Shown here: in pieces, positions 36,373-60,347 of the stretch | Layout of the letters: each line of letters starts with the position of its first letter | Position numbering within the stretch: the first letter of the stretch is position 1 | Virus record (IMG/VR): IMGVR_UViG_3300030012_002828 | Location: 29,844 to 93,843 of that record | DNA from: a virus | Length of the DNA stretch: 64,000 nucleotides | Direction: 5' to 3' (one strand) | The notes under the pieces: generated by a model | Told to the model about the DNA's origin: nothing | What the model saw: only the letters and a program-made list of their open reading frames with translations | Databases searched by the model: none | Translations under genes and position numbers: made by a program

Positions 36373-37425
36373 CTAATATAATCCGTGTGGTTTTGCTTCT
36401 AATTGTCCTGCTTGTGTAACTCTACAAAACTGTGCTTTATTTTGAAATTCATCAATTTTATATGCACCTACATAACTCATAGAAGATTTGATTCCATCAG
36501 TTATATCATCAACTATTCTTCTTACCTTTCCTTTGTATGGAGTAATTTTAGAATTACCTTCTACATTTTTAGTTTCTTCGCCTCTTGCTGTTTTAGAATC
36601 AATAGATGCAGAACCTTGATACTTTTTGTATAATTGTTCATTAGGCCATTGACCCATTTTAGATATAATTCCGGGTGTTTCTTTTGTACCCGCAAATAAA
36701 GAACCTATCATAACTGTATCAGCACCGAGAGCAATTGCTTTAGGAATATCTCCTACTGTTTTACAACCACCATCAGCAACAATATATGGTATTTCATCTA
36801 AATCTAAAACTTCATTTATATGATAAGCAATATCTAATAATGCTGTTGCTTGAGGAACACCGACACCTGCTCTAATTCTTGTTTCACACATAGAACCATT
36901 ACCTATTCCTACTCTTAAAGAATCAGCACCTGCTTCAATTAATCTTTCAGCCGCACCTTTAGTTACAATATTACCTGCCATTACATGAACATCTTCAAAT
37001 TCTTCTTTAATATAAGAAATCATTTCACCGACTAATTCATGGTCGCCATGAGCAACATCAATACATACACCTTGAATATTGGTATAACCTACTAAAGAAT
37101 CAAATCTTTCTTTACCTTTTTCTCCTACACCAATAGCGGCAATATATTGTCCTCTTACTTCTGCTTCAATATCATAACATAATGCTACTTGCTCTTTAAT
37201 ACTTTGAAATCTGTGTAATACTCCAATACCACCAAGTTTTGCTAATTCAATACACATTTCTGAACCGCATACTGTGTCCATTGGTGAAGCAATTAAAGGA
37301 ACATTTAAACTATAATTCCCAAATTCAACTGATGTATCACAATAAATTCTTGATTTTATATCTGACATATTTGGTATAATACTAATATCATCATAAGTTA
37401 AACTATCTCTTTCTTCTATTTTCAT
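36373..37425 (-). CDS. guaB: IMP dehydrogenase/GMP reductase family protein without CBS domains
   Basis: [44 protein letters not shown]. Confidence 0.85.
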
Positions 37426-46607: not shown

Positions 46608-46895
46608 TTATTCATTTTCTTCATCTCCTTCATCTGTATTCCATTCACCAAATTCTAATTCTTCTTCTCTTCTTTCAACAATTCTATCATTAAAATTAAC
46701 TGATGCTAACTTTACATGATTTACTGTTAATCTTGTTTTTGTCATATCTCCACCTGCTTCTAAATTACATAGTTCAGCAAACTGTTCCAAAATCTTTTCG
46801 GCTCTTGTTTGATATTCTATAATTGCAGGTAAAGGCAATTGTCTATCCGGTGCTATTTTCTCAAATATTCTTTTTATTTCTCTTACGCTAACCAT
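46608..46895 (-). CDS. Histone-fold protein
   Basis: alpha1 'VREIKRIFEK', L1 'RQL', long alpha2, L2/alpha3 'KTRLTVNHVKLA', then an acidic tail. Confidence 0.65.
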   Translation of the reverse strand: MVSVREIKRIFEKIAPDRQLPLPAIIEYQTRAEKILEQFAELCNLEAGGDMTKTRLTVNHVKLASVNFNDRIVERREEELEFGEWNTDEGDEENE

Positions 46896-47305
46896 TTATC
46901 TACACTCTCCTTGTTGTAAAAATATTTTGGATTTTCTACTTTTTTAAGATTCAGCGCAATCCATACTGAACCACTTAGAGAATCAACTCTAATTATTTCA
47001 TAATCTTCAGAAACACAATAAGTTTCTACCGATGGTGTTTTTCCATATAGTCTTTGAATTTCACTTGCAATAATTGGTAAATTATCAACAATATATTTTA
47101 TTATCAAAGGTTGTTGGATTTCTACATACGGTGCTGAAGATAATTCATATTCCCCTGTTTGATTACAAACATTACATTCTGCCCCATTACATATAGGACA
47201 TTCAATAATTAAATTTGTTAATACGGGAAACCTTACTCTTCGGACTCTTCTAAACTCATTAGATTTGTCTTGCTTAGGAATTCCTTTCCATTGTTTTTCC
47301 ACCAT
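46883..47305 (-). CDS. Hypothetical protein with CPICNG..CNVC Zn motif
   Basis: Start MVEKQW (47305) with GGAG SD; overlaps the JAB gene by about 73 nt. Confidence 0.6.
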   Translation of the reverse strand: MVEKQWKGIPKQDKSNEFRRVRRVRFPVLTNLIIECPICNGAECNVCNQTGEYELSSAPYVEIQQPLIIKYIVDNLPIIASEIQRLYGKTPSVETYCVSEDYEIIRVDSLSGSVWIALNLKKVENPKYFYNKESVDKWLA

Positions 47306-47700
47306 TTCATTCTCTCCATTTTTCCAAGAACAATTGCTGATTCCAATATAGGGGCTTGTATATTTATTGTATTCCAATCAGTATTACTAAAATATGCAGT
47401 TCCAAATGGATGAGTATGAATCCAACATCTAAGCGGTATTTTCATTCCTTTTACACTTTCATCTTTATAGTCTACAAAACTTGAAGTTCCCTTACTAATA
47501 AACAGTTTGTTATCTCTATCTACAATTACTGAAACTTCTTTACCATCAAGTAAATCTACTGATGCTTGCCATATTGATTCGTGAAAATCCTCATCATCAT
47601 AATTATTTTCATATGCAGCATTAATCAATTCCTTGCACAATTTCCATGTTTCTTTCTCTACTTCTATATTCATTTTATTCACCTTCTTCTTCATATTCAA
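47233..47700 (-). CDS. JAB/MPN+ metallo-isopeptidase
   Basis: E...WIHTHP.....FSNTD (JAMM motif HxH-x7-S-xx-D). Confidence 0.85.
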   Translation of the reverse strand: MNMKKKVNKMNIEVEKETWKLCKELINAAYENNYDDEDFHESIWQASVDLLDGKEVSVIVDRDNKLFISKGTSSFVDYKDESVKGMKIPLRCWIHTHPFGTAYFSNTDWNTINIQAPILESAIVLGKMERMKWWKNNGKEFLSKTNLMSLEESEE

Positions 47701-47884
47701 ATCCTAATTGTTCCTGTCTTTCTTTTCCACAGTCGAAAGGATTAGAGTGAATTTGACCACTAATCCTCGAATTTATTATTTTGATATTTGGCTCACCTTC
47801 TTTAATTAGTTTACCACATAATCTACATTTTGCATTTCCTGTTCCTACACTTAATATCCATTCTGTCATCATATACACATCCAT
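47675..47884 (-). CDS. Small PARP-type-like Zn-finger protein
   Basis: 'GNAKCRLCGKLIKEGE...H...C'. Confidence 0.55.
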   Translation of the reverse strand: MDVYMMTEWILSVGTGNAKCRLCGKLIKEGEPNIKIINSRISGQIHSNPFDCGKERQEQLGFEYEEEGE

Positions 47885-48402
47885 TTTGGTTTATCTCTTT
47901 TCTTATATTCACTTCTCCAACCTTTCCATTGTTTATCACCCATGTAAAAATTACGATAGGCTTGAAGACTATTTCCTTCTACTTTATATTTATCGGGCAT
48001 ACATTGAGGTGGTTCTTTAAAACCATTATCTTCTAATCTTGATGGTGGAGTTCTCAACATATTTCTCAATAATCTATCTGATTGATGTACTTTACCATAA
48101 CGATAAGTATATTCATCACATAATGCTTCAAATACTTTATACATAAAATTGTAATGTTGTACAGATTCTCTAACCCAAATTGTTGTAGGGTGATTTAAAT
48201 GAGCAATCTTGTAAACTTTTTGCTTATCTTTGGGTAATCCTACAAATACATATTTACCATCTACTTCATGATAATATTGGTCTACAACTCTATGTGTCGT
48301 AGATAGCATTTGTGCGTACTCTAAAATCATCTTAATACAATGTGCATTATTATGACTCTTAGCAATAGCAATAGGGCAGGTTTCTATATAAAAGAAATTC
48401 AT
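47869..48402 (-). CDS. Pyrimidine-dimer DNA glycosylase (DenV-related family)
   Basis: MNFF..KMILEYAQMLST, NHP.TIW, EYTYRYGKVH, PQCMPD, AYRNFY. Confidence 0.8.
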   Translation of the reverse strand: MNFFYIETCPIAIAKSHNNAHCIKMILEYAQMLSTTHRVVDQYYHEVDGKYVFVGLPKDKQKVYKIAHLNHPTTIWVRESVQHYNFMYKVFEALCDEYTYRYGKVHQSDRLLRNMLRTPPSRLEDNGFKEPPQCMPDKYKVEGNSLQAYRNFYMGDKQWKGWRSEYKKRDKPKWMCI

Positions 48403-48660
48403 TTATTCTTCCTCCATTTTAATTAACTCTTGTTTTGGTGTATCAGGGTATAATACCCTTCCAATACAATACAATACAATCATACCCATAATTCCTATAA
48501 ATAATGTTTTCATTCTTCTTCCACTCCTTTTTTATGATTTACATACAAATCAGAAACTACCTCAGCCCCTAAAAATACGGCTACTGCTTCTACAATATCA
48601 TTTGATTCTTCTAACATAGCAATTAACTGCTCTCTTGTGTAACTTGAATAATCCATTTAA

Positions 48661-49218
48661 TCACCCATTAATCTTAAAGTGTTTTTCTACATGGTCGCCT
48701 GTAAAATATCTTTGCATCCATTGAGCACCATAACCTGCAATTACAACTTGCATAAAATTAACACCTTCAGGTTTTCCTTCCCAAGTATCTCCTTGACAAC
48801 TAAAAGAACCATCTGGGCCACTTGTAAATACAGTATATAATTTTGGGTCTTCTAAATGTGAAATCATAGCAGCGTTTCTTGCTTGTGCTCTTAAATCTAA
48901 CCATTTAATATCTGAATTATACATTGTTCTTCTAATATCTAAATTATCAGCACAACATACAACTAAATCATATCCTTTTAATTGTTTAGCAGTTAGTACT
49001 GGATAAGGATTAGCATGAACATTATATCTTTCATCCATTACATCAACCTTTTTCTTTTCAATATCTTCTTTAGTAAAGTTTTGATATGTGATATTCTTTT
49101 CCTCAACTATGTCAGGGTCATATACAGTAATATCATATATTCCTACTTTATCTAATAGTGGTATTAAAAAACTTCCAATTCCACCTGCGCCTATTATCAA
49201 TACATTTCTATTTTTCAT
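48661..49218 (-). CDS. ThiF/MoeB/E1-like Ubl-activating enzyme
   Basis: IIGAGGIGS, DPDIVEEKNI.YQ, K.K, CCADN..R and a candidate catalytic Cys in 'SCQ'. Confidence 0.9.
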   Translation of the reverse strand: MKNRNVLIIGAGGIGSFLIPLLDKVGIYDITVYDPDIVEEKNITYQNFTKEDIEKKKVDVMDERYNVHANPYPVLTAKQLKGYDLVVCCADNLDIRRTMYNSDIKWLDLRAQARNAAMISHLEDPKLYTVFTSGPDGSFSCQGDTWEGKPEGVNFMQVVIAGYGAQWMQRYFTGDHVEKHFKING

Positions 49219-49838
49219 TTTCTCACTTTCCTTAAGTTTCTTTTTAATCTTGGCAAACTAACTCCAAATTTTTCACACACTTCTTTTTGAGTATATGGTG
49301 TGTGTTCATATACATATGCCGCAACAATTCCCCTTGTCAAAGTTTGCTGCTCATTCCACGCTTTACACGCATTATTAATTTCTTTATTACTGATTTCCAT
49401 ATTATCCAAAAACTTGTCAATATCATTTAAACCAAACACTCCACTATTTGAGTAATGTCTTGCAATTCTTTTTGCAAGTCTACTTACTCTACTTGTTTTG
49501 CATCCCAAAAATTTACAATAATCTATCATTAAAGATGGTTTATTTAAATCCCTCATAGTATAGTATAAGATAGCACAAGCCCTCTCCGCTAAATCATAAG
49601 TATGATATAAATTAGTATATGAAATATATTTATCGTTTTTAATAACTTCATCTTTATCTTCAATATCAAACTCATTCATAAGCATCATTAAGTCTGTGCT
49701 AAATGTTTTTTTGTTCTTAGGTATGTCGCTTACTTCATATATTCTATATGCTTGAATACATCCACAAACTAAACAAACGGGAAGATTAATCTCTTTGTTT
49801 AAGTTCAGGTGCTTCGCTTGACAATTTACACATGGCAT
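49215..49838 (-). CDS. tfb: TFIIB/TFB-like transcription factor
   Basis: Zn ribbon CVNC..CLVCG and two cyclin repeats 'ACAILY..' and 'GIVAAYVY..TQKEVCEKFGVS'. Confidence 0.8.
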   Translation of the reverse strand: MPCVNCQAKHLNLNKEINLPVCLVCGCIQAYRIYEVSDIPKNKKTFSTDLMMLMNEFDIEDKDEVIKNDKYISYTNLYHTYDLAERACAILYYTMRDLNKPSLMIDYCKFLGCKTSRVSRLAKRIARHYSNSGVFGLNDIDKFLDNMEISNKEINNACKAWNEQQTLTRGIVAAYVYEHTPYTQKEVCEKFGVSLPRLKRNLRKVRK

Positions 49839-51039
49839 CCCAATCCAACCTTATTTCATCTTGATTTTCTTCATGCTCTTGAATATATCGTCTAACCGTA
49901 GAAACTAATTTAACAAGCATTGTATCATTCATACAAGCAAATGCTCTTGCTGCAAATTGGTCGCCAACACTTGCACCACTTGATAAATTATCAATACAAA
50001 TTGGGCCAGCCCAATAAGGTTCTTTATCAGTATTATTTATTACATTATCTAATACAGTAATTGCTTGACCTTCGCCTAATCTTTTTGTTGTCAAAACATA
50101 TGTACTAACATCTTGTATTCCACGCTTTGATTGATTATCAACAACCATCCAATCAGCATAAGTACCTCTAATAAACATAGCCAAAACTTCTTGTCCGTTT
50201 CTTACAAATTTACCTTTAGTAACATTATCATATTTATTAACCATATCATTAAATAATTGCATAGCCCTTTGTTCAGCCAAATCGCTTCTTCTATTCTGTT
50301 TCAAAAACTCTTTCATGATTTTGATTTGTGCAGGAGTTCCTTTTGTTCCAACAGTTCTAAACCAAAGTTCAGCAGGAGAAACCATATACCATTTTCCTGA
50401 ACGCTTATTATACAAATAAGAATTAACAAAAGTATTTAGATTCTTTGTACTTATTTCTCCCCAAACACCACTACTAATTTCAAGTGCATAATTATCCGGT
50501 GCAATTCTCATTAAAGACAATCTTGTATTTCTCTCTTTGACTTCTAATCCTTCTCTCTCAAAGAATTTGTATGGCACTCTATTTTCCATAGCATAAGAAA
50601 CATTTTCAGGTACTTCAATACATCTTAAGAAATAATCATCTAATGCTTCTTGTGCTTCTTCACCTTCTCCGTTAATATAAGCAGAACGCATAATAGTTCT
50701 ACTAATTGCTTTCATTATGGTATCTAAGTTAGCAAAATCACCATTAGCATTATATCTATTACCAATTTTTCTAAGACAAACCAAGTATTTACATTTACCA
50801 ATTCTCATAAACAATGTTTGTCTTTCATCTTTTCTAACCAATTGCGTTAAATTTAATGTGCCTTTCAATGTATTATGAATACTCTCAATAGTCGGTTCTT
50901 TAGAAATATTATTTCTTTGTCTTTGTGCCCAAATATCTACATTTCTATCTCTTGTAAATTTACTACAAGATAGTGTTGTTTCCAATACTGAATTTCTATC
51001 GTCGCTTGCGTGTCTTACTCTAAAAGTTACTGTTCCCAT
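49786..51039 (-). CDS. 417-aa protein with candidate E2-like C-terminal active-site motif
   Basis: 'GPICIDNL' resembles the UBC consensus GxICLxxL; two genes upstream of E1. Confidence 0.45.
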   Translation of the reverse strand: MGTVTFRVRHASDDRNSVLETTLSCSKFTRDRNVDIWAQRQRNNISKEPTIESIHNTLKGTLNLTQLVRKDERQTLFMRIGKCKYLVCLRKIGNRYNANGDFANLDTIMKAISRTIMRSAYINGEGEEAQEALDDYFLRCIEVPENVSYAMENRVPYKFFEREGLEVKERNTRLSLMRIAPDNYALEISSGVWGEISTKNLNTFVNSYLYNKRSGKWYMVSPAELWFRTVGTKGTPAQIKIMKEFLKQNRRSDLAEQRAMQLFNDMVNKYDNVTKGKFVRNGQEVLAMFIRGTYADWMVVDNQSKRGIQDVSTYVLTTKRLGEGQAITVLDNVINNTDKEPYWAGPICIDNLSSGASVGDQFAARAFACMNDTMLVKLVSTVRRYIQEHEENQDEIRLDWDAMCKLSSEAPELKQRD

Positions 51040-51040
51040 T

Positions 51041-52249
51041 TTATTCTCTCCTTAATAGTTCGCCAATCAAATCGCTGGCTTCTGTTTTTGTCATACCATA
51101 AGTTATTTCTCCGCCTAATCTTTTGATATAATTAATTTGTTTAGTTGTGGCGGGTTCATCTAATTGTGCTACTTCGGGCATAATTATTTTTATAATCCTT
51201 GTTAATTGTTTGGGCGAAAGTTGCTGTTGTCTAACAATTTTATTTTTCATGTCAGTTAAGAAAGTTCTTTCCCAATTATTTTTACCTTGCTCTACTGTAA
51301 AAGGTGGTAAATCATAATATTCACAAGCCTTTGCTAATGTTTCATTTTCTTGTTCATTAATTGCTTGATTGCGAATTTTTGATGCTTCTTCTTTAATCAT
51401 CATTCTTCTTTGTTCAGCCAATTCATCTTGCTTTGCTTGTTGTTCTCGAACATAAGATTTTCTTTGTTCTATTTCTTCCATTTGCATATCTAATTGCTTT
51501 TCAAATTTCTGTGCTTTAGCAAATAATAGTTGAACATCTCTCCATAATTTTTCATTAGGATAACCTCTTGTTTCAATTTGTCTTCTTGGATTATCAGGAT
51601 GATTCCATCTCCAAACAACAGAAGGCATTTTACCTAATGAATTGACTTTTGTTTTTGCAATAACCATTTTATCTTCATGTCTTTTTGTGGCTGGATTCCA
51701 ATATTTACCATTAGCACGAACATTGATTCTTAAATCTAATTCTTTTACTTCGTTAAACATTTCTTCCCAATCTTCACCATTTTCTTTCCACCACCATTCG
51801 GCTTTCATAGTTTTAACCGATTCTTTCATCCATTCGACAATTTTTTCTTCAGTAATTGCATTAGCAGGAATACCTTTATTCTCTTTTAAATGTCTAATAA
51901 TCATCCAATTTGTAATGTGTTCACTACCAAGAATTTCTAATACTCCATTTTCAGTATTCTCTACTTCAAAATGCCAAGCAATAGGATGTCCACAAACACA
52001 ATAATTAGGATGATTACTTCTATGGGGTTCGGGTATTTCAAGATATTCTGTATTAATATATCTCATAGGTCTATACCAAACATTACCCGTTGCTCTCCAT
52101 TCATGTTTTACTTCATCCCAATCATCAGATACACTAATTTCAGTTAATCTATTAATTAATGCTTGATTCAAAGCACCGCTTTTAATATTAATTTCATGAT
52201 TATGTTCTCCTTCAATATGATAATCTATAAAATCTTCCACATTAATCAC
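51041..52249 (-). CDS. Hypothetical protein (CxCGHPI motif; C-terminal PAT.KQ..YI..LG module)
   Basis: Long ORF in the operon. Confidence 0.6.
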   Translation of the reverse strand: MINVEDFIDYHIEGEHNHEINIKSGALNQALINRLTEISVSDDWDEVKHEWRATGNVWYRPMRYINTEYLEIPEPHRSNHPNYCVCGHPIAWHFEVENTENGVLEILGSEHITNWMIIRHLKENKGIPANAITEEKIVEWMKESVKTMKAEWWWKENGEDWEEMFNEVKELDLRINVRANGKYWNPATKRHEDKMVIAKTKVNSLGKMPSVVWRWNHPDNPRRQIETRGYPNEKLWRDVQLLFAKAQKFEKQLDMQMEEIEQRKSYVREQQAKQDELAEQRRMMIKEEASKIRNQAINEQENETLAKACEYYDLPPFTVEQGKNNWERTFLTDMKNKIVRQQQLSPKQLTRIIKIIMPEVAQLDEPATTKQINYIKRLGGEITYGMTKTEASDLIGELLRRE

Positions 52250-52488
52250 TCCATATCTGCATTAAACAACTGTTGTTCAAGATAACCGTCACACATTTGA
52301 TTTAGTTTTTCTGCTAAACTTTGTGTAATTCCCGGAATTGTACTTCTGTTTAAACTAAGCCAAATAGTATGTGCTCTATTCAATACAATAATACAACCAT
52401 TATCATGTTCATTCTTTTTAATTACCACCGGTGGCATTTCTTCGCTTTCTATCAATCTAAATTCTACTTCTTTCTTTTTGTTTATCAT
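52246..52488 (-). CDS. Hypothetical protein
   Basis: Coupled ORF. Confidence 0.55.
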   Translation of the reverse strand: MINKKKEVEFRLIESEEMPPVVIKKNEHDNGCIIVLNRAHTIWLSLNRSTIPGITQSLAEKLNQMCDGYLEQQLFNADME

Positions 52489-52494
52489 TTTCTA

Positions 52495-52710
52495 TCACTC
52501 CAAATTCATTAAGTGTGTTAAAGGGTCTGTTTTCATTAATTGTCTACTTAGTATAATGTGCGGAAACTTAGATAATAACATTGGTATTATCTTGTTCCAA
52601 TCAATTTGACTATCGTATTGTTTTGTCCAAACACTACCGTTTGCTTTTAACGATGTTATCCTTACCACTTCATATTTTTCTTCATTTTCATAATCCTTGC
52701 TTTCGCTCAT
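52495..52710 (-). CDS. Hypothetical protein
   Basis: ORF with GTGA SD. Confidence 0.55.
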   Translation of the reverse strand: MSESKDYENEEKYEVVRITSLKANGSVWTKQYDSQIDWNKIIPMLLSKFPHIILSRQLMKTDPLTHLMNLE

Positions 52711-52821
52711 TCTATCACTTCACTTTTTTTCTTTATTTTTTTAAATTCTTAAATTACCAGAAATTTTCTTTACAACTCAGAAAATTTTCGATTATTCAGA
52801 ATTTATATGACACAAAATGTA

Positions 52822-54681
52822 TCATATTTCACAAAGGCCACCTGCACACGCAATCTCGCCTTGTAAATCTGTATTATCTTCTGTTTCAATAATCTTAGTC
52901 AAGTCTATTTCTTCAAGACCTGCTATCATTTGTTCGTACTGTAATCGAGTTATTGACTCAAAAGGTGCTTGAACATATGTACCCCCATCAAAGGGCAATA
53001 CAGACAAACCATTGTAGTATTTTCTATTATTCCACATCCAATTTCCTACTTCATCCCACTCCCATTTTCTAATTGAAATTGTAGCAGAAACATTATGAGT
53101 ATTCATACCTAATGTATGACCTTTATTTACCCAATTAGTTGCTACATATTTTACCCTTTCAAGTAATTGAATTGCATCTTCAGTTCTTGTTGTAGAACCT
53201 TCGGGTGCTTTTTGAGGTAAAGAAATTACAGCAGTATCATGTGGTCTAAATTGTTCATCTTCTATTATAGAAGGATGATTATTTACTAAGTAATTATAAA
53301 TTGCTTCATTCTTACCTACTCTAACTCTTCTAATATAATAATCATCATGCCAAGCATGAATACCTGATGAAGTTCCTAATACACAAGATGTAGTTCCGGC
53401 AGGTTTAATACAAGTAATTCTTGCCGCAGGATTTATTCCTATTTGTTCTGCAATTAATTTATTAACAGACTTTGATATTTCTGCCGCTTGTTGTAAATCT
53501 AATCCTTTTAGTTTATTAGATGCAATACCTGTCATACTAACTCCAAGTAAAGCATCTTTTTCTGTTGTAGTTTTCCATGTTTCTCTCAAATAATGGAAAT
53601 CAGTATATCCTGCTTGTAAAGTTCCCAATACAGTTGCCGCACTAACTCTTGAATTTAAATCATCTTGGTCTACTACATCGGAAACATTAATTTCTGTTAG
53701 ATTACAAAATTGATTTGGTCTTAATGCAATTTCACAACAAGGGTTAGTTCCCCAATCTTTATCGTTTGAGAAATAAATCCCGGGTTCTCCAGAACCTGAT
53801 TCTCTAATTCTTTTCCATAATTTCATAAAGTAATCTTTATCAATTCTACTTCTAATAAGAACGGCTGAATTATTAGCCCTTCCTCTTTGAGGATTTAACT
53901 CCCACCAATTACCAGATTTAGCAGTTATCATATCCATATCATCTGCACTAAATAAAGAAATCAAAGCGGCTCTACGAATACCACCCGCTAAAACTGCATC
54001 AGCAATATGACACATTATATCATGTGCTTGAATAGGAGTTATTTTATCTCCAGTTTGAACATCTTTTAGTATTCCTTCTACTTTAACTAAACATTCTTTT
54101 AATGGTTGAGGGCCGGGTGCTTTTCCTCCTGAAGTAATTAATCTTTCACCTTTTGCTCGAATATCAGAATAATCAAATATTGGTGTACTTGCAAGTCTAC
54201 CAAAATAAGATTTAACTAATACCTTAATTGCATCTGCCCAACCTTCAATTGAATCACCAATTAAATATCGCCTTGTTCTTTTAGGGTTAGGTTGTTTAAT
54301 TTCCGGTAGTTTATCTATATGATTATACTGTACTGAATAACCGACACCTGTTCCACCAAGAAGTAAAAACATTGATTCCCAAAAAGCAGCAATATTATCA
54401 ATTGGTACATATGCACAATTGTATATTCTATTAGGTGCTACTTCTATTGGCTTTCCACCAAATTGTAGACTTCTCATAGAAGGTAATATTTTCTTTGGTT
54501 GTACAAAATTAGTGTATACATCCATTATCTGTTCTTCTAAATTAGGATATTTTTTAATATGCATCATCATATTTCTTGTGCATAATTCATCCCATGTTTC
54601 TCTTCTTTCTTTTTCAGGTACATATTTTGCATACTTCATATGTACAGTTACATCACTTAATATTTTACTTGCTCTTGTCAT
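52822..54681 (-). CDS. nrdJ: Class II (adenosylcobalamin-dependent) ribonucleotide reductase
   Basis: PSMR, NC, GTGVG, RRAA, TNPCCEI, IKPAGT and C-terminal CAGGLC; no beta-subunit gene nearby. Confidence 0.92.
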   Translation of the reverse strand: MTRASKILSDVTVHMKYAKYVPEKERRETWDELCTRNMMMHIKKYPNLEEQIMDVYTNFVQPKKILPSMRSLQFGGKPIEVAPNRIYNCAYVPIDNIAAFWESMFLLLGGTGVGYSVQYNHIDKLPEIKQPNPKRTRRYLIGDSIEGWADAIKVLVKSYFGRLASTPIFDYSDIRAKGERLITSGGKAPGPQPLKECLVKVEGILKDVQTGDKITPIQAHDIMCHIADAVLAGGIRRAALISLFSADDMDMITAKSGNWWELNPQRGRANNSAVLIRSRIDKDYFMKLWKRIRESGSGEPGIYFSNDKDWGTNPCCEIALRPNQFCNLTEINVSDVVDQDDLNSRVSAATVLGTLQAGYTDFHYLRETWKTTTEKDALLGVSMTGIASNKLKGLDLQQAAEISKSVNKLIAEQIGINPAARITCIKPAGTTSCVLGTSSGIHAWHDDYYIRRVRVGKNEAIYNYLVNNHPSIIEDEQFRPHDTAVISLPQKAPEGSTTRTEDAIQLLERVKYVATNWVNKGHTLGMNTHNVSATISIRKWEWDEVGNWMWNNRKYYNGLSVLPFDGGTYVQAPFESITRLQYEQMIAGLEEIDLTKIIETEDNTDLQGEIACAGGLCEI

Positions 54682-55124
54682 TGTTCCACTTCCTTTCTTG
54701 TTGGTAAATTTTCCCATGAATCAAATTGTAGTAAGAGTTTATTTGTTTTCTTCTCTACTATTATCCAATCCATTACTTGTAGCCATTCCCATTCCTTCAT
54801 TTCTCTTATTGCTTCGTCACCGTTAATTTTCACTAATTGGTCTATTTCCCAAAATTCTTTACCTTTATATTTAATTTTAGGGTGTCCACTTGCTTGAATT
54901 ATGCTTTTTCGACTTTCTGCAATTATTGTACCATCAGTATAAAAGTTTGGGTTGGTACAGATAACATTTAAGTCATTAAATTTTTCATGCAATTTTGCTA
55001 AAGATTTGCCCTCTTTACTCTTCCATCCTGATTGTTTTAAATCTAATTCAAACATCTTGGTTGGTATGAAATTGTAGGCTTCTTCGTCTATCTCGTAGTT
55101 ATTGTAAAATTCTGTTATTCTCAT
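54678..55124 (-). CDS. Hypothetical protein
   Basis: ORF with GGTGA SD. Confidence 0.6.
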   Translation of the reverse strand: MRITEFYNNYEIDEEAYNFIPTKMFELDLKQSGWKSKEGKSLAKLHEKFNDLNVICTNPNFYTDGTIIAESRKSIIQASGHPKIKYKGKEFWEIDQLVKINGDEAIREMKEWEWLQVMDWIIVEKKTNKLLLQFDSWENLPTRKEVEQ

Positions 55125-55232
55125 CTTATCACCATATATATTACCTACAATTCACATTATAGGATTTATTTTAAAAAATTACGGTTTTGATAGGCCCGTA
55201 AATACCTGTTTTTCAAAATAATTTAAAGATTA

Positions 55233-55499
55233 TCATAAGTTAGCCTTTGCCATTTTGACTGATGTTACTGATTGAAAATTAATGCCCTTTGTAATATTGT
55301 TTTTATAGCATTCATCGCATATAAAAAACATATTAACTCTATGATTGGCAGTATATCGAGATGCACCATGATTATATTTACTACCATATCCTGCATAGGA
55401 TAATAGCATTAAACCATTTTTAGGGTTTTTTAGTTCTTCACCTTTATCATCTTTCACCTTTTCTATCAATTTGTCACAGCATATACATTCATAATTCAT
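55233..55499 (-). CDS. Small Zn-finger protein
   Basis: CICC..GYGSKY..ICDEC. Confidence 0.6.
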   Translation of the reverse strand: MNYECICCDKLIEKVKDDKGEELKNPKNGLMLLSYAGYGSKYNHGASRYTANHRVNMFFICDECYKNNITKGINFQSVTSVKMAKANL

Positions 55500-55720
55500 A
55501 TTTTCTCACCTACTTTCCTAAATACTTTTCTTACTGAGGATTTAACCTCATGATAAATCCCTTTTGATTTGGGACTTCCTGAAACTGTAATTAACTTTAC
55601 AGTACTTGTCTTTGGGTTCATTACCCTAATTTTAATGTGTTTGCCGATTTGAAAATCAACAATCTTTACATTTAGGGTTTCTATTGCACTCATCATCTTT
55701 TTTATATCTTTTGAGTTCAA
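55496..55720 (-). CDS. HicA-like small basic protein
   Basis: 'GKHIKI..LITVSGSPK..VRK'; TTG start after GAGGTGG. Confidence 0.5.
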   Translation of the reverse strand: MNSKDIKKMMSAIETLNVKIVDFQIGKHIKIRVMNPKTSTVKLITVSGSPKSKGIYHEVKSSVRKVFRKVGEKI

Positions 55721-56040
55721 TTTTCCACCTCTATTCCCTTTGCACCATATTTTGCACAATAAGCATTGAAAGATATAATATTTGCAATACTGTCAATTCT
55801 TATTAGTTGATTATTTGCTCTTTTGTCATGGTATTGTTTAGCAAATTCTGTAAGTATAACCTCACATAATTCTGCGGGTAGCCATACTTCCCATTCAGTT
55901 TCAAAAACATGAAGAAATGCGCCAACCAATCCTTCTTCTCTTTCAATTCTTATTAGATTCTTTTCGTATTTTTTCTCATCCCTTAGTTCTTTAAACTTTT
56001 TAGGTAAATAACATAATGCTTTCCATAGTTCTCTAATCAT
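55717..56040 (-). CDS. Hypothetical protein
   Basis: Coupled ORF. Confidence 0.55.
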   Translation of the reverse strand: MIRELWKALCYLPKKFKELRDEKKYEKNLIRIEREEGLVGAFLHVFETEWEVWLPAELCEVILTEFAKQYHDKRANNQLIRIDSIANIISFNAYCAKYGAKGIEVEN

Positions 56041-56444
56041 TCAAAGTTCGCCTCCTTCTGGAAATAAATAAAAATATCTTTTGCATGAGCAAAAGTTTGT
56101 TTAGAATTTTTACCATTTTGATATGGAATATTCCTATGTAAATAATTGTTCAATTTTTCTATAATGTAATAGTTTTTCCATTCAAGATAATCTTCAGGGT
56201 CAGTTAAATTTCTTGGATTAATCCACCATGAATGAGTGTGTCTAACTTCTTTGTCATCTACTTCTGATAACCATTCTTTTAATAAAGTTTCAAACCCTTT
56301 ATGTTGAACGGGATATTTCATAAAATGCATTGGATGTGCATGATTTACCCATTCTATATAATCTTCTTTTTTATTTTTTCCCAATGCTATTCTTGCAATT
56401 TCAATAAATTCTTCATAGCCATCTTCTCTTCTCCAAAAACTCAT
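56037..56444 (-). CDS. Hypothetical protein
   Basis: Start MSFWRR after GAGG; the track start lies inside the terminator. Confidence 0.6.
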   Translation of the reverse strand: MSFWRREDGYEEFIEIARIALGKNKKEDYIEWVNHAHPMHFMKYPVQHKGFETLLKEWLSEVDDKEVRHTHSWWINPRNLTDPEDYLEWKNYYIIEKLNNYLHRNIPYQNGKNSKQTFAHAKDIFIYFQKEANFE

Positions 56445-56460
56445 AATAAATTCCTCAAAT

Positions 56461-56499
56461 AAAAAAAGCCCCCACCGATTCCGAAGAATCAGCAGGGGC
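56461..56499 (-). terminator. Hairpin terminator with UUCG loop downstream of the Ubl gene
   Basis: GCCCCTGCTGATTC-TTCG-GAATCGGTGGGGGC followed by a T run. Confidence 0.8.
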
Positions 56500-56558
56500 A
56501 TTAATACTAATTACTCGTAATTAGTGTGCTTATAATAATTTATATTACAAAATCTAAT

Positions 56559-56783
56559 TTAGAATCCGTCATCGAAGTCTTCACAACCACCAACAATTGC
56601 TTGAGCCAATACGACTTCATCAACCGCATTAAAATCAATGTTAGCAATTTCTTCTCTTGTAACCAATTCTCCATCAACATAAGCCCAATGGGTAGGATGG
56701 TCAATTATTTGGTCAAGTGCTTCACTTGCACTTAGAGTTAGTTCTGTGTGTCCTGTTTCATTCAATATTGTTATTTTTACCAT
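56559..56783 (-). CDS. Ubiquitin-like (ThiS/MoaD/SAMP beta-grasp) protein precursor
   Basis: MVKITIL..., 'AYVDGELV', 'DEVVLAQAIVGG' plus extension CEDFDDGF; strong SD AGGAAGTGA. Confidence 0.75.
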   Translation of the reverse strand: MVKITILNETGHTELTLSASEALDQIIDHPTHWAYVDGELVTREEIANIDFNAVDEVVLAQAIVGGCEDFDDGF

Positions 56784-59555: not shown

Positions 59556-59711
59556 GGTTATTACCACATAATAACATTAGTTTACAGGTATAGGGTATTC
59601 CCCAAAGATGCAACCATATGGTAATACTTTGAATTACCCTGAATAATAATAAATCCTAAGATTATGTGCTGTGAAAAAATATACAGCGCAAAAAACATAG
59701 GAGAAATAATT

Positions 59712-60347
59712 ATGGCTAAGAAAACAGAAAAGAAAGAAAAAGATTTGTCAATGACTGACGAAGCATGGAATAAAAGAGTAGGTAGAATTGAAGAATTCTT
59801 ATCCCATGAAGGGAATCAAGAATTTCTAAATTCTTCCGATGATATTATTGATGCTGTCGAATTGATACAAATGAATATCCGTAGAGGAAACAGAAATGCT
59901 ACAAAGCGGAAGAATTTGTGGAATCAAATTTTGATTGAAGGTAGAGATTGGACAACAGAAAAGCAAGAATTACTTGCTATTGATTGGCCTGTTGCTGTCG
60001 GAAAAGAATCAAATTTGCCTGCTCACGCTCAAGCAAGTTTGAAAGAAATGAAGAAATTGGTTCAAGAAGCATACGCAGAATTTTGGAATTCAAATCCAAT
60101 TATTCAAATGACATCTGTTATTTCTGATAGAAATAAACAATTAGGTGGTTCACCATTTGAAAATGGTTTAGAATTTGGCGAAGGTCGAGGTGTAGCAGTA
60201 AATCAAAGATTTGTGAAATATTTCACCGATGGTAGATGGGATGGAAATTTCAATCTTGAAGACGGATTTGCTATTAAACCACCACTACCTGTTGAAAATG
60301 CAACATCAGAAGAAAAAACCGATGAAGGTGAATCTGATGATTCGTGA
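59712..60347 (+). CDS. Hypothetical protein, paralogue of 59073-59555
   Basis: Start MAKKTE after AGGAG; track start 59664. Confidence 0.65.
   Translation: MAKKTEKKEKDLSMTDEAWNKRVGRIEEFLSHEGNQEFLNSSDDIIDAVELIQMNIRRGNRNATKRKNLWNQILIEGRDWTTEKQELLAIDWPVAVGKESNLPAHAQASLKEMKKLVQEAYAEFWNSNPIIQMTSVISDRNKQLGGSPFENGLEFGEGRGVAVNQRFVKYFTDGRWDGNFNLEDGFAIKPPLPVENATSEEKTDEGESDDS

What the first reader, a model, noticed from the sequence alone, without database searches (positions are those of the whole stretch)
47233..56783. Virus-encoded ubiquitin-like conjugation system: Ubl + E1 + candidate E2 + JAB
Seen: a beta-grasp-like protein ending VGG plus a tail (56559-56783), an E1/ThiF enzyme with a nucleotide-binding loop and a lone 'SCQ' Cys but no CxxC Zn pairs (48661-49218), an intact JAMM peptidase (47233-47700) and a protein with an E2-like GPICIDNL motif (49786-51039). 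All are on one strand within 10 kb. Known: E1+E2+JAB+Ubl sets form prokaryotic conjugation systems such as PRTRC cassettes and Bil-type antiviral systems, whereas archaeal sampylation uses E1 only. No thiamine, MoCo or tRNA-thiolation genes are present in the window, which argues against a sulfur-carrier role. Inference: the archaeal virus covalently tags host or viral proteins, possibly for proteasomal targeting or counter-defence. The interleaved TFB and nearby histone-fold genes are candidate substrates or partners.
Basis: partly seen in the sequence, partly recalled or inferred. Interest (0 to 1): 0.9.

Follow-up and report, generated by a model that had tools for sequence, protein, structure and literature searches.

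The report
Archaeal virus ubiquitin-like tagging gene set
An abundant marine archaeal virus (magrovirus type) carries, as strictly co-occurring core genes, a small ubiquitin-like protein made as a precursor, a stripped-down activating enzyme, a trimming protease and a protein predicted to have an E2-like fold, which looks like a virus-owned protein-tagging system that the papers I could search do not describe.

Summary
All four ORFs sit at the stated coordinates on the minus strand.

- **Ubl (74 aa):** it models as a beta-grasp. Its relatives all end in an invariant AIVGG followed by 0-11 variable residues, the mark of a processed Ubl precursor.
- **E1 (185 aa):** it is a true ThiF/E1 Rossmann core, but minimal. 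It has no Zn CxxC pairs and no cysteine after C141. The conserved Arg of the NxxRQ motif is Tyr.
- **JAMM peptidase:** all five catalytic residues are invariant.
- **417-aa protein:** residues 251-400 model as a UBC/UEV-like fold. Z-scores are weak (3.8-5.6), but all 50 top rows belong to that superfamily. The protein has a single invariant Cys, in GPICIDN, at the E2 position. No known E2 family matches it by sequence.
- **Co-occurrence:** in about 160 related viral loci with enough flank it is complete or nearly so (Ubl 41/41, E2-like 61/61, JAMM 78/78; from the Ubl side 75/75, 71/71, 70/71). In some lineages the four genes lie within about 4 kb.
- **Sulfur transfer:** no sulfur-transfer partner was found in the 94-kb record.
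- **Host context:** the virus is magrovirus-like.

Best reading (0.55): a virus-encoded Ubl conjugation cascade. The targets and the E2 role are inferred, not shown. It is not a PRTRC, Bil or CBASS member. I rate it a new variant of a known kind.

The parts
56559..56783 (-). Ubl precursor (74 aa), a ThiS/MoaD-like beta-grasp. Gly65-Gly66 are encoded at 56586-56591. The 8-residue tail is at 56562-56585.
   Evidence: AF2 pLDDT 71 with beta-grasp strand and helix order. VIA-wide best hits are MoaD (Z 4.6), TtuB, ThiS, SAMP1, CysO and ubiquitin. AIVGG is invariant, the tail is 0-11 aa, and three lineages stop right after GG. A 772-nt RNA-library contig covers the gene (weak).
49786..51039 (-). 417-aa two-part protein: an N-terminal region of about 250 aa of unknown fold, plus a C-terminal UBC/UEV-like domain (residues 251-400, nt 49840-50289). 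The invariant Cys348 codon is at 49996-49998.
   Evidence: AF2 pLDDT 83. All top-50 pdb_via rows are UEV or E2 chains, Z 3.8-5.6 with 100-127 residues aligned. In the independent wide search, UBC-superfamily chains are the largest group of the top 50, including BubCD and Cap2. C348 is the only invariant Cys. The family has 154 clusters, whose near-full-length members (about 330-490 aa) carry the domain C-terminally.
49215..49838 (-). TFB-like Zn-ribbon plus HTH protein (207 aa). It lies between the E2-like gene and E1 wherever a homologue was detected (31 of 65 loci by tblastn; also seen directly in the divergent L040). Whether it belongs to the system is unknown.
   Evidence: It has an N-terminal CxxC...CxxC ribbon. 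The 281-291 aa relatives carry the TFIIB-type ribbon. Pfam Zn_Ribbon_TF gives E 5e-4, below the cut-off, for the L040 homologue. Weak sigma-70 r4 / HTH hits.
48661..49218 (-). Minimal E1/ThiF-type adenylating enzyme (185 aa).
   Evidence: Pfam ThiF 8.8e-18. The invariant residues are GxGGIGS, D34/D36, K57, D91-N92, R96, LDLRAQ and GSFSCQG. Tyr45 replaces the Arg of NxxRQ. C141 aligns with the first Cys of a CxxC in a plasmid ThiF. 31% identity to a PRTRC ThiF over 167 aa.
47233..47700 (-). JAMM/MPN+ metallopeptidase (ORF 155 aa; likely start at 47643). The HxHx7SxxD motif is at 47377-47418.
   Evidence: E, H, H, S and D are invariant in 27 relatives. Weak Prok-JAB (E 0.01) and PADLOC JAB matches. 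It is kept in the lineages whose Ubl has no tail.
46883..47377 (-). Conserved neighbour with a CxxCxGxxCxxCxxxG zinc knuckle (about 131 aa in relatives). Membership of the system is not established.
   Evidence: Present in 74 of 76 loci with enough flank, but at a variable distance from the JAMM gene.

Best explanation
The virus encodes its own ubiquitin-like protein conjugation cascade. All steps below are inferred.

1. The Ubl is made as a precursor.
2. The JAMM peptidase removes the variable tail and exposes Gly-Gly.
3. The minimal ThiF-type E1 adenylates the C-terminal Gly with ATP.
4. The activated Ubl passes to Cys348 of the UBC-like domain of the 417-aa protein. It goes either directly from the adenylate or through E1 Cys141.
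5. The N-terminal 250 residues of the 417-aa protein select the target, as in an E2/E3 hybrid, and the Ubl ends on a target lysine.
6. The JAMM peptidase may also reverse the tag.

Shown here: the folds and motifs, the invariant residues, the strict co-occurrence and the absence of sulfur-transfer partner genes. Inferred: every catalytic step, the order of transfer and the targets (host or viral proteins during replication).
For: - Ubl: beta-grasp model. AIVGG is invariant and followed by 0-11 variable residues.
- JAMM: the catalytic residues are invariant. The gene is retained in three lineages whose Ubl already ends in GG (L028, L044, L054). This argues for a role beyond precursor trimming.
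- E1: ThiF Rossmann core with an invariant nucleotide loop, DN motif and Lys.
- 417-aa protein: a UBC-like fold is the only recurring fold for residues 251-400. The single invariant Cys sits between the beta-meander and the next helix. The architecture is the same across the near-full-length members of 154 clusters.
- Co-occurrence is complete or nearly so from both the E1 side and the Ubl side, while RNR (34/41) and ligase (71/76) come and go. The compact form has Ubl to JAMM within about 3.3-4.7 kb.
- No PP-loop, rhodanese, MoaE, ThiG or NifS in the 93.8-kb record.
- There is a precedent for prokaryotic conjugation with an E1 that lacks the crossover-loop Cys (PMC11601596).
Against: - E2 fold matches are weak (best Z 5.0 wide, 5.6 second look). 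That is below the level the tool calls typical for unrelated best hits. The domain was not folded alone.
- There is no HPN motif and no sequence match to any E2 family.
- E1 has Tyr in place of the conserved Arg of NxxRQ. It also lacks the N-terminal helices and the C-terminal Ubl-binding subdomain, so its activity is unproven.
- All relatives belong to one virus clade, so co-occurrence may only reflect a shared core genome.
- Archaeal SAMP, Urm1 and TtuB systems conjugate without an E2, and QbsE/QbsD and CysO/Mec+ show that Ubl+E1+JAMM can be pure sulfur chemistry (own knowledge).
- No target is known.
Confidence: 0.55

Rival explanations
1. E2-independent modifier, as in archaeal SAMP/UbaA/HvJAMM1, Thermus TtuB/TtuC or Urm1/Uba4. 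The Ubl, E1 and JAMM peptidase act together, in conjugation and possibly sulfur transfer as well. The 417-aa protein is an unrelated core replication-module protein whose UBC/UEV-like domain only binds partners.
For: The Ubl is closest in fold to MoaD, ThiS, TtuB and SAMP1. The host domain uses E2-free sampylation (PMC2948915, PMC4895103, listed). The best Z values for the 417-aa protein are to catalytically dead UEV domains. It has no E2 sequence signature.
Against: One invariant Cys sits at the E2-like position in a G-P-I-C-I-D-N motif across sequences down to 26% identity. The protein co-occurs with the set in 61/61 and 75/75 loci, and lies between the Ubl and E1 genes in all compact loci.
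Confidence: 0.2
2. Sulfur-carrier system only. E1 adenylates the Ubl, a host sulfurtransferase makes the thiocarboxylate, and the sulfur goes into a tRNA, DNA base or cofactor. The JAMM peptidase trims the tail, as QbsD does for QbsE, or releases an adduct, as Mec+ does for CysO.
For: ThiS/MoaD-like fold and a GG end. The best NCBIfam scores of E1 are ThiF models, though far below their cut-offs. E1 has no cysteine downstream of C141, where canonical E1s carry the crossover-loop catalytic Cys. Tail-trimming JAMM peptidases are known in sulfur pathways (own knowledge: QbsE/QbsD, CysO/Mec+).
Against: There is no rhodanese, PP-loop thiolase, MoaE, ThiG or cysteine desulfurase anywhere in the 93.8-kb record. 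The genes sit in the replication/early module, and the E2-like partner is unexplained. The host could still supply the missing enzymes, and the record may be incomplete (CheckV 50%).
Confidence: 0.15
3. The E1-like protein is not a Ubl activator but a nucleotide-binding or peptide-modifying enzyme (MccB-like or other). The 74-aa protein is a non-conjugated beta-grasp adaptor, so the set is only syntenic.
For: The best PDB sequence hit is MccB. The Arg-to-Tyr change lies in the phosphate-binding motif. The best long plasmid match lies beside an MFS transporter and a monooxygenase.
Against: An invariant GG with a hypervariable tail and an intact JAMM peptidase are hard to explain without C-terminal chemistry. 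The DN motif, Lys and nucleotide loop are invariant.
Confidence: 0.07

Closest known systems
Bacterial Ubl conjugation operons used in antiphage defence (Bil type, Bub, CBASS type II Cap2/Cap3)
   Same: The same parts list: Ubl, ThiF-type E1, UBC-fold E2 and JAB/JAMM peptidase. Non-canonical E1s without a crossover-loop Cys occur there too (PMC11601596). BubCD and Cap2 chains appear among the fold neighbours of the E2-like domain.
   Different: It is encoded by a virus of archaea, not by a bacterial defence island. E1 is a stand-alone 185-aa core, not fused to E2 or JAB. PADLOC E1-E2 models match only the Rossmann part, and no E2 or effector model matches. The E2-like protein carries a 250-aa N-terminal region and forms its own family.
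Archaeal SAMP / UbaA / HvJAMM1 sampylation, and the Caldiarchaeum-type E1/E2/RING operon
   Same: Archaeal setting. A ThiS/MoaD-like modifier with a GG end, an E1 and a JAMM isopeptidase. A link to proteasomal turnover is known there (PMC4895103, PMC5654768, listed).
   Different: Sampylation uses no E2. The UbaA model scores 34.5 bits against a cut-off of 450. No RING protein was identified. The viral E1 lacks Zn sites and the C-terminal subdomain.
Sulfur-carrier sets with a JAMM peptidase (QbsE/QbsC/QbsD, CysO/MoeZ/Mec+)
   Same: A small ThiS-like carrier with extra residues after GG that a JAMM enzyme removes (own knowledge).
   Different: Those E1s carry rhodanese domains or sit beside sulfur-acceptor enzymes. 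None is present here.
PRTRC cassettes of plasmids and ICEs
   Same: The viral E1 shares 31% identity over 167 aa with a PRTRC ThiF, including the W-L-D-L stretch. The gene order is similar: small protein, roughly 430-aa protein, roughly 240-aa protein, ThiF.
   Different: PRTRC_ThiF scores 43.3 bits against a cut-off of 144.75, and no PRTRC A/B/C model matches. hhalign of the Ubl, E2-like and JAMM profiles against the cassette proteins is negative. There is no ParB.
E1-like genes of Asgard 'Nidhogg' viruses
   Same: Archaeal viruses that carry ThiF/E1-like genes, proposed to exploit ubiquitin-like modification (10.1101/2021.07.29.454249).
   Different: Only E1-like genes are reported there, proposed to use the host's own E2 and Ubl. 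Here the virus carries the modifier, the peptidase and an E2-like candidate itself.

Membership tests
ThiF/E1 adenylating enzyme superfamily (PF00899) | Rossmann nucleotide loop GxGxxG and a family score above the cut-off | tested here: met
   64.8 bits against 28.1. GxGGIGS is invariant.
ThiF/E1 adenylating enzyme superfamily (PF00899) | Mg/phosphate residues: Asp of the DN motif, the conserved Lys, and the Arg of NxxRQ | tested here: inconclusive
   D91-N92 and K57 are invariant. The Arg position is Tyr45 (Phe in one relative), as seen in the HMMER alignment to MccB.
Canonical Ubl-activating E1 (thioester-forming) | Catalytic Cys in the crossover loop | tested here: inconclusive
   The only candidate is C141, which aligns with the first Cys of a CxxC Zn site in a plasmid ThiF. 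No Cys lies further downstream.
JAMM/MPN+ metallopeptidase | E ... HxHx7SxxD active site | tested here: met
   E36, H76, H78, S86 and D89 (numbering from the start at 47643) are invariant in 27 sequences.
JAMM/MPN+ metallopeptidase | Pfam Prok-JAB score above the gathering cut-off | tested here: not met
   16.1 bits against 25. PADLOC JAB E 0.0074.
Beta-grasp Ubl / ThiS-MoaD | Beta-grasp fold | tested here: met
   The model has beta-beta-alpha-beta-beta-beta order, pLDDT 71. The top 50 VIA rows are almost all beta-grasp; best is MoaD, Z 4.6, 63 residues aligned, rmsd 3.9. The Z values are modest, as expected for 66 residues.
Beta-grasp Ubl / ThiS-MoaD | C-terminal Gly-Gly available for activation | tested here: met
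   VGG is invariant (Ile63 in all but one sequence). Tails are 0-11 aa and variable. Three lineages end at GG.
Beta-grasp Ubl / ThiS-MoaD | Sequence match to Pfam ThiS (PF02597) | tested here: not met
   No match at E <= 10 in six frames of the record, and none in hmmscan.
UBC/E2 superfamily | UBC fold (helix, four-strand meander, Cys loop, helices) | tested here: inconclusive
   Residues 251-400: all top-50 pdb_via rows are UEV or E2, Z 3.8-5.6, rmsd 3.4-4.5, 100-127 residues aligned. The wide search gives a best Z of 5.0. The Z values are low and the domain was not folded alone.
UBC/E2 superfamily | Catalytic Cys after the meander; HPN motif upstream | tested here: inconclusive
   The invariant C348 lies right after strand 340-347 and 10 residues before helix 358-370. 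No HPN is present. The residue-level superposition was not available.
UBC/E2 superfamily | Sequence match to UQ_con, Prok-E2, UEV or RWD models | tested here: not met
   No Pfam or NCBIfam hit at E <= 0.1. UQ_con gives no six-frame match. The profile finds no PDB sequence and only its own family in 1.84 billion representatives.
PRTRC system | PRTRC ThiF plus proteins A-F and ParB above the NCBIfam cut-offs | tested here: not met
   43.3 bits against 144.75 for the ThiF; no other PRTRC model matches. hhalign is negative.
CBASS type II / Bil-type defence systems | Fused or paired E1-E2 models together with an effector or CD-NTase | tested here: not met
   PADLOC E1-E2 models match only E1 residues 1-117. 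The Ubl, the E2-like protein and the neighbours match nothing.
Magrovirus-type archaeal tailed virus | HK97 capsid related to halovirus capsids, an archaeal-type replisome and a genome of 90-100 kb | tested here: met
   The MCP hits only haloarchaeal and Methanofastidiosa tailed viruses. PolB, RFC, ERCC4, ATP ligase and RNR are present. Relatives are 90-98 kb and carry a chaperonin. Compared with PMC5434244. No direct sequence comparison with named magrovirus genomes was possible.

The most novel reading that the evidence does not exclude
Magroviruses, among the most abundant marine viruses, carry a complete self-contained ubiquitin-like conjugation cascade. It has a new E2 family fused to its own substrate-recognition region and a minimal E1 without a cysteine in the usual crossover-loop position. 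The virus uses it to tag host proteins, for proteasome/Cdc48 destruction or to disarm defence, or to tag its own replisome. This would be the first such cascade owned by a virus of prokaryotes, and a viral counterpart of the bacterial antiphage Ubl systems.
Probability: 0.3. Interest if true: 0.9.

Novelty: new variant of a known kind. Interest (0 to 1): 0.72.

Why it matters
Ubl conjugation in prokaryotes has recently been tied to antiviral defence. A virus-owned cascade would show that the other side uses the same chemistry.

It would also provide a very small E1 (185 aa) and a sequence-novel E2-like family for mechanistic study.

Finally, it would give a testable handle on how uncultured Poseidoniales viruses take over their hosts. 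The genes are core to hundreds of marine viral contigs, so the function is probably important for the virus.

Tried and rejected
- **Sequence searches with the E2-like protein:** Pfam, NCBIfam, PHROGs and PADLOC gave nothing useful. The only hit was a PHROG 'tail protein' at E 9e-4, which I judged to be noise. The PDB sequence profile found nothing.
- **ESM Atlas on the E2-like domain:** scores of 0.80-0.84, noise level, with one cluster 13% UQ_con. I treated it as a lead only.
- **Foldseek against PDB:** no hit at E <= 0.001 for either model.
- **PRTRC homology by hhalign:** negative, but the templates were single sequences, so this is weak.
- **Search for longer, fused E1 forms:** none found, weak evidence.
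- **Genome-contig scan with the E2-like family:** two contigs labelled as bacterial MAGs. The 24-kb one (L085) carries the viral synteny, and the 2-kb one (L086) carries p417 next to an RNR fragment. I read both as mis-binned virus, not as a cellular origin.
- **RNA evidence:** contigs of one metatranscriptome from the source sample cover the Ubl gene. Contigs cannot rank expression, and DNA carry-over is possible.
- **Other checks:** the ThiG match (13.4 bits) is a TIM-barrel cross-hit in the IMPDH/GMP-reductase gene. There are no tRNAs and no Rfam families in the window. The 'histone-fold' neighbour has no Pfam match.
- **Not run:** The E1, the JAMM peptidase and the isolated E2-like domain were not modelled, and no complex could be predicted.

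Full report
**1. What the window is**

The window is the last 64 kb of a 93,843-bp virus record.

- The plus-strand left part encodes a tailed-virus head and tail module: prohead protease, an SU10/HK97-type capsid protein and a tail tube.
- The minus-strand right part encodes an archaeal/eukaryotic-type replication set: family B polymerase, an RFC-like clamp loader, an ERCC4-HhH nuclease, a PD-(D/E)XK nuclease, an ATP-dependent ligase, a class II ribonucleotide reductase and a GMP-reductase/IMPDH-like enzyme.
- In the phage collection, the capsid protein matches only haloarchaeal tailed viruses and one Methanofastidiosa virus.
- Relatives are marine (Tara, JGI) contigs of 90-98 kb, and some carry a chaperonin beside the locus.

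This fits the published description of magroviruses, the viruses assigned to Marine Group II (Poseidoniales) archaea (PMC5434244). So 'archaeal virus' is well supported, although the host assignment itself is inherited from the literature.

**2. The observation**

All four ORFs are present at the stated coordinates on the minus strand.

*Ubl (56559-56783).*
- Forty-odd distinct homologues from related loci share three invariant stretches, N-E-T-G-H-T, H-P-T-H-W and A-I-V-G-G. After the GG they carry 0 to 11 residues with no conservation.
- Three lineages stop right after GG.
- An AlphaFold2 model built on 30 sequences has moderate confidence (pLDDT 71). Its element order is strand-strand-helix-strand-strand-(short helix)-strand, with a disordered tail.
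- Foldseek finds nothing significant, but its weak list is almost entirely ubiquitin, NEDD8, ThiS, TtuB and MoaD.
- The Foldseek-independent search gives MoaD (Z 4.6, 63 residues aligned), TtuB, ThiS, SAMP1, CysO and many ubiquitin-like domains among the top 50.
- Pfam ThiS does not match.
- I conclude that this is a beta-grasp modifier or carrier of the ThiS/MoaD kind. Its C-terminus is under the selection pattern typical of processed Ubl precursors.

*E1 (48661-49218).*
- Pfam ThiF matches residues 2-100 well above the cut-off.
- 641 near-length homologues exist. The best 120 are all 179-203 aa.
- The invariant residues are the nucleotide loop, D34/D36, K57, D91-N92, R96, an L-D-L-R-A-Q stretch and G-S-F-S-C-Q-G.
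- Three things are unusual:
  - The protein starts right at the first Rossmann strand. It ends soon after the region that aligns with the first Zn-site CxxC of longer ThiF proteins. By my own comparison with MoeB from memory, it lacks the N-terminal helices and the C-terminal subdomain.
  - The Arg of the N-x-x-R-Q motif is Tyr45, as seen in the HMMER alignment to MccB.
  - The only Cys outside the C-C-A-D-N strand is C141. It aligns with the first Cys of a CxxC in a plasmid ThiF, and no Cys follows it.
- By score, the E1 does not favour sulfur-type or conjugation-type E1s. ThiF, PRTRC, MoeB, Cap2, UBA5 and MccB all match the Rossmann half at similar levels.

*JAMM peptidase (47233-47700).*
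- The family score is sub-threshold.
- The catalytic Glu and the H-x-H-x7-S-x-x-D motif are invariant in 27 relatives that fall to 36% identity.

*417-aa protein (49786-51039).*
- No library matches it.
- In thirty homologues, down to 26% identity, C348 is the only invariant Cys. It sits in G-P-I-C-I-D-N and is followed by an invariant G-D-Q...R...N-D helix.
- The model (pLDDT 83) shows, for residues 251-400: a helix, four strands, a variable insertion, a strand ending at C348, then three to four helices.
- In the shortest homologues the distance from the fourth strand to the Cys is about 16 residues. From the Cys to the next helix is 10 residues. By my recollection this is close to the spacing in UbcH5.
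- Foldseek's weak list contains UbcH5, UBE2D2 and UBE2E1 repeatedly.
- In the wide VIA search, UBC-superfamily chains are the largest group of the top 50 rows for residues 251-399. They include UEV domains, FANCL, E2S, Ubc9, UBE2F, RWD domains, the bacterial BubCD complex and Cap2.
- In the second look, all 50 rows are UEV or E2 chains. Whole E2 cores (for example UbcH5 1-147) align to 251-398.
- The Z values (3.8-5.6) are low by the tool's own yardstick. I therefore treat the fold call as probable, not proven.
- A profile of this domain, read against 1.84 billion representative proteins, finds only 154 clusters. The near-full-length ones are about 330-490 aa with the domain at the C-terminus, and no known E2 appears.
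- The family is essentially virus-restricted. The only hits in 185,579 species genomes are two contigs labelled as bacterial MAGs. The longer one carries the viral synteny of E2-like, E1, JAMM, zinc-knuckle protein and ligase.

**3. Linkage**

- From 82 E1-centred loci with enough flank, the Ubl is found in 41/41, the E2-like gene in 61/61 and the JAMM gene in 78/78. RNR (34/41) and the ligase (71/76) are dispensable.
- From 80 Ubl-centred loci, many on other contigs, the E2-like gene is found in 75/75, E1 in 71/71 and JAMM in 70/71. The one miss is not explained.
- All are on one strand in the order Ubl, E2-like, TFB-like, E1, JAMM.
- In RNR-less lineages the Ubl start lies as little as 0.7 kb from the E2-like match and 3.3 kb from the JAMM match. 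L040 shows the compact layout directly.
- The three lineages whose Ubl needs no trimming still keep the JAMM gene.
- The caveat is that all these genomes are one virus clade, with E1 identity of 54-93%. The data therefore show core-gene status and persistent clustering, not independent re-assembly of the set.

**4. Sulfur-carrier alternative**

- Six-frame searches of the whole record find no PP-loop thiolase, rhodanese, MoaE or cysteine desulfurase. ThiG gives only a sub-threshold TIM-barrel cross-hit in the IMPDH-like gene.
- Pfam scans of about 50 ORFs show none either.
- The host could supply such enzymes, and CheckV rates the record at 50% complete. This weakens the sulfur reading but does not exclude it.

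**5. Mechanism proposed**

The proposed sequence has five steps:

1. The JAMM peptidase trims the precursor.
2. E1 adenylates the exposed Gly-Gly.
3. The Ubl is transferred to C348 of the E2-like domain.
4. The N-terminal region of the same protein chooses the target.
5. The JAMM peptidase may reverse the tag.

A direct adenylate-to-E2 hand-over, or some other non-canonical intermediate, is plausible. Bacterial Bub pathways work with an E1 that lacks the crossover-loop Cys and use oxyester intermediates (PMC11601596). All of these steps are inferred.

**6. Comparison and novelty**

- The parts list matches prokaryotic Ubl-E1-E2-JAB systems.
- Every curated membership test fails: PRTRC, CBASS/Bil PADLOC models, UbaA, UQ_con and Prok-E2.
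- The magrovirus papers I could read do not mention ThiF, JAB, MoeB or ubiquitin. A review of archaeal tailed viruses does not either.
- The nearest precedent is E1-like genes in Asgard 'Nidhogg' viruses, proposed to use host E2 and Ubl.
- Within the searchable library, a complete virus-encoded set therefore looks undescribed.
- I rate it a new variant of a known kind. The chemistry and parts are familiar. The owner (a virus of archaea), the minimal E1 and the E2-like family are not.

**7. Weak extras**

- In a metatranscriptome from the sample that probably yielded this genome, a 772-nt contig covers the Ubl gene and its upstream neighbour. This is compatible with transcription but is not proof of it.
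- The scan's earlier notes on the Ubl precursor and the E2-like motif, on this same window, agree with what I found.

Noticed in passing
window 56559-56783 (Ubl) and homologues in L002-L082: Three His are invariant (H12, H29, H32, in N-E-T-G-H-T and H-P-T-H-W). They lie in two loops that should sit at one end of the beta-grasp, so they could form a metal or partner-binding site. I know of no similar site in characterised Ubls.
   Followed up: no
window 49215-49838; L040:8767-9630; L027, L077: A TFB-like gene (Zn ribbon plus HTH; 207 aa here, 281-291 aa in other lineages) lies between the E2-like gene and E1 wherever it was detected. Only a sub-threshold TFIIB ribbon match supports the name.
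   Followed up: partly
window 47233-48656 and elsewhere on the minus strand: Many genes end in Glu-rich tails (for example EEE or ESEE) immediately before the next start codon. They include the JAMM gene and two tiny ORFs at 48403-48513 and 48510-48656. The likely cause is an SD-like GGAGG embedded in the upstream gene's end.
   Followed up: no
L085 (NZMJ01000151.1, labelled a Maricaulis MAG) and L086 (labelled a Balneolaceae MAG): Contigs binned as bacterial MAGs carry viral genes. L085 has the E2-like, E1, JAMM, zinc-knuckle and ligase synteny. L086 has the E2-like gene next to an RNR fragment. They are probably mis-binned magrovirus contigs.
   Followed up: partly
window 59664-60347 (+): RNA-library contigs from the source sample reach their highest depth here (about 89 in one run and 25 in another), far above the rest of the 16 kb that was laid. 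This may be a strongly transcribed early gene.
   Followed up: no
window 46883-47377 (-): A core protein with a DnaJ-like CxxCxGxxCxxCxxxG zinc knuckle is found in 74 of 76 loci. It is adjacent to the JAMM gene in this lineage and 2.5-3 kb away in others. Its ORF overlaps the JAMM gene's 3' end here.
   Followed up: partly
window 36373-37425 (-) and G000:C1:5130-6008 (+): The virus carries auxiliary metabolic genes: an IMPDH/GMP-reductase family enzyme (E 4.8e-92) and a PAP2 phosphatase.
   Followed up: no
ESM Atlas neighbours of E1: A cluster of 211-aa ThiF proteins labelled 94% Archaea, mostly Thermoplasmatota, is a near neighbour of the viral E1. It could be a host homologue or a provirus. 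This is a lead for the origin of the gene and for the host link.
   Followed up: no
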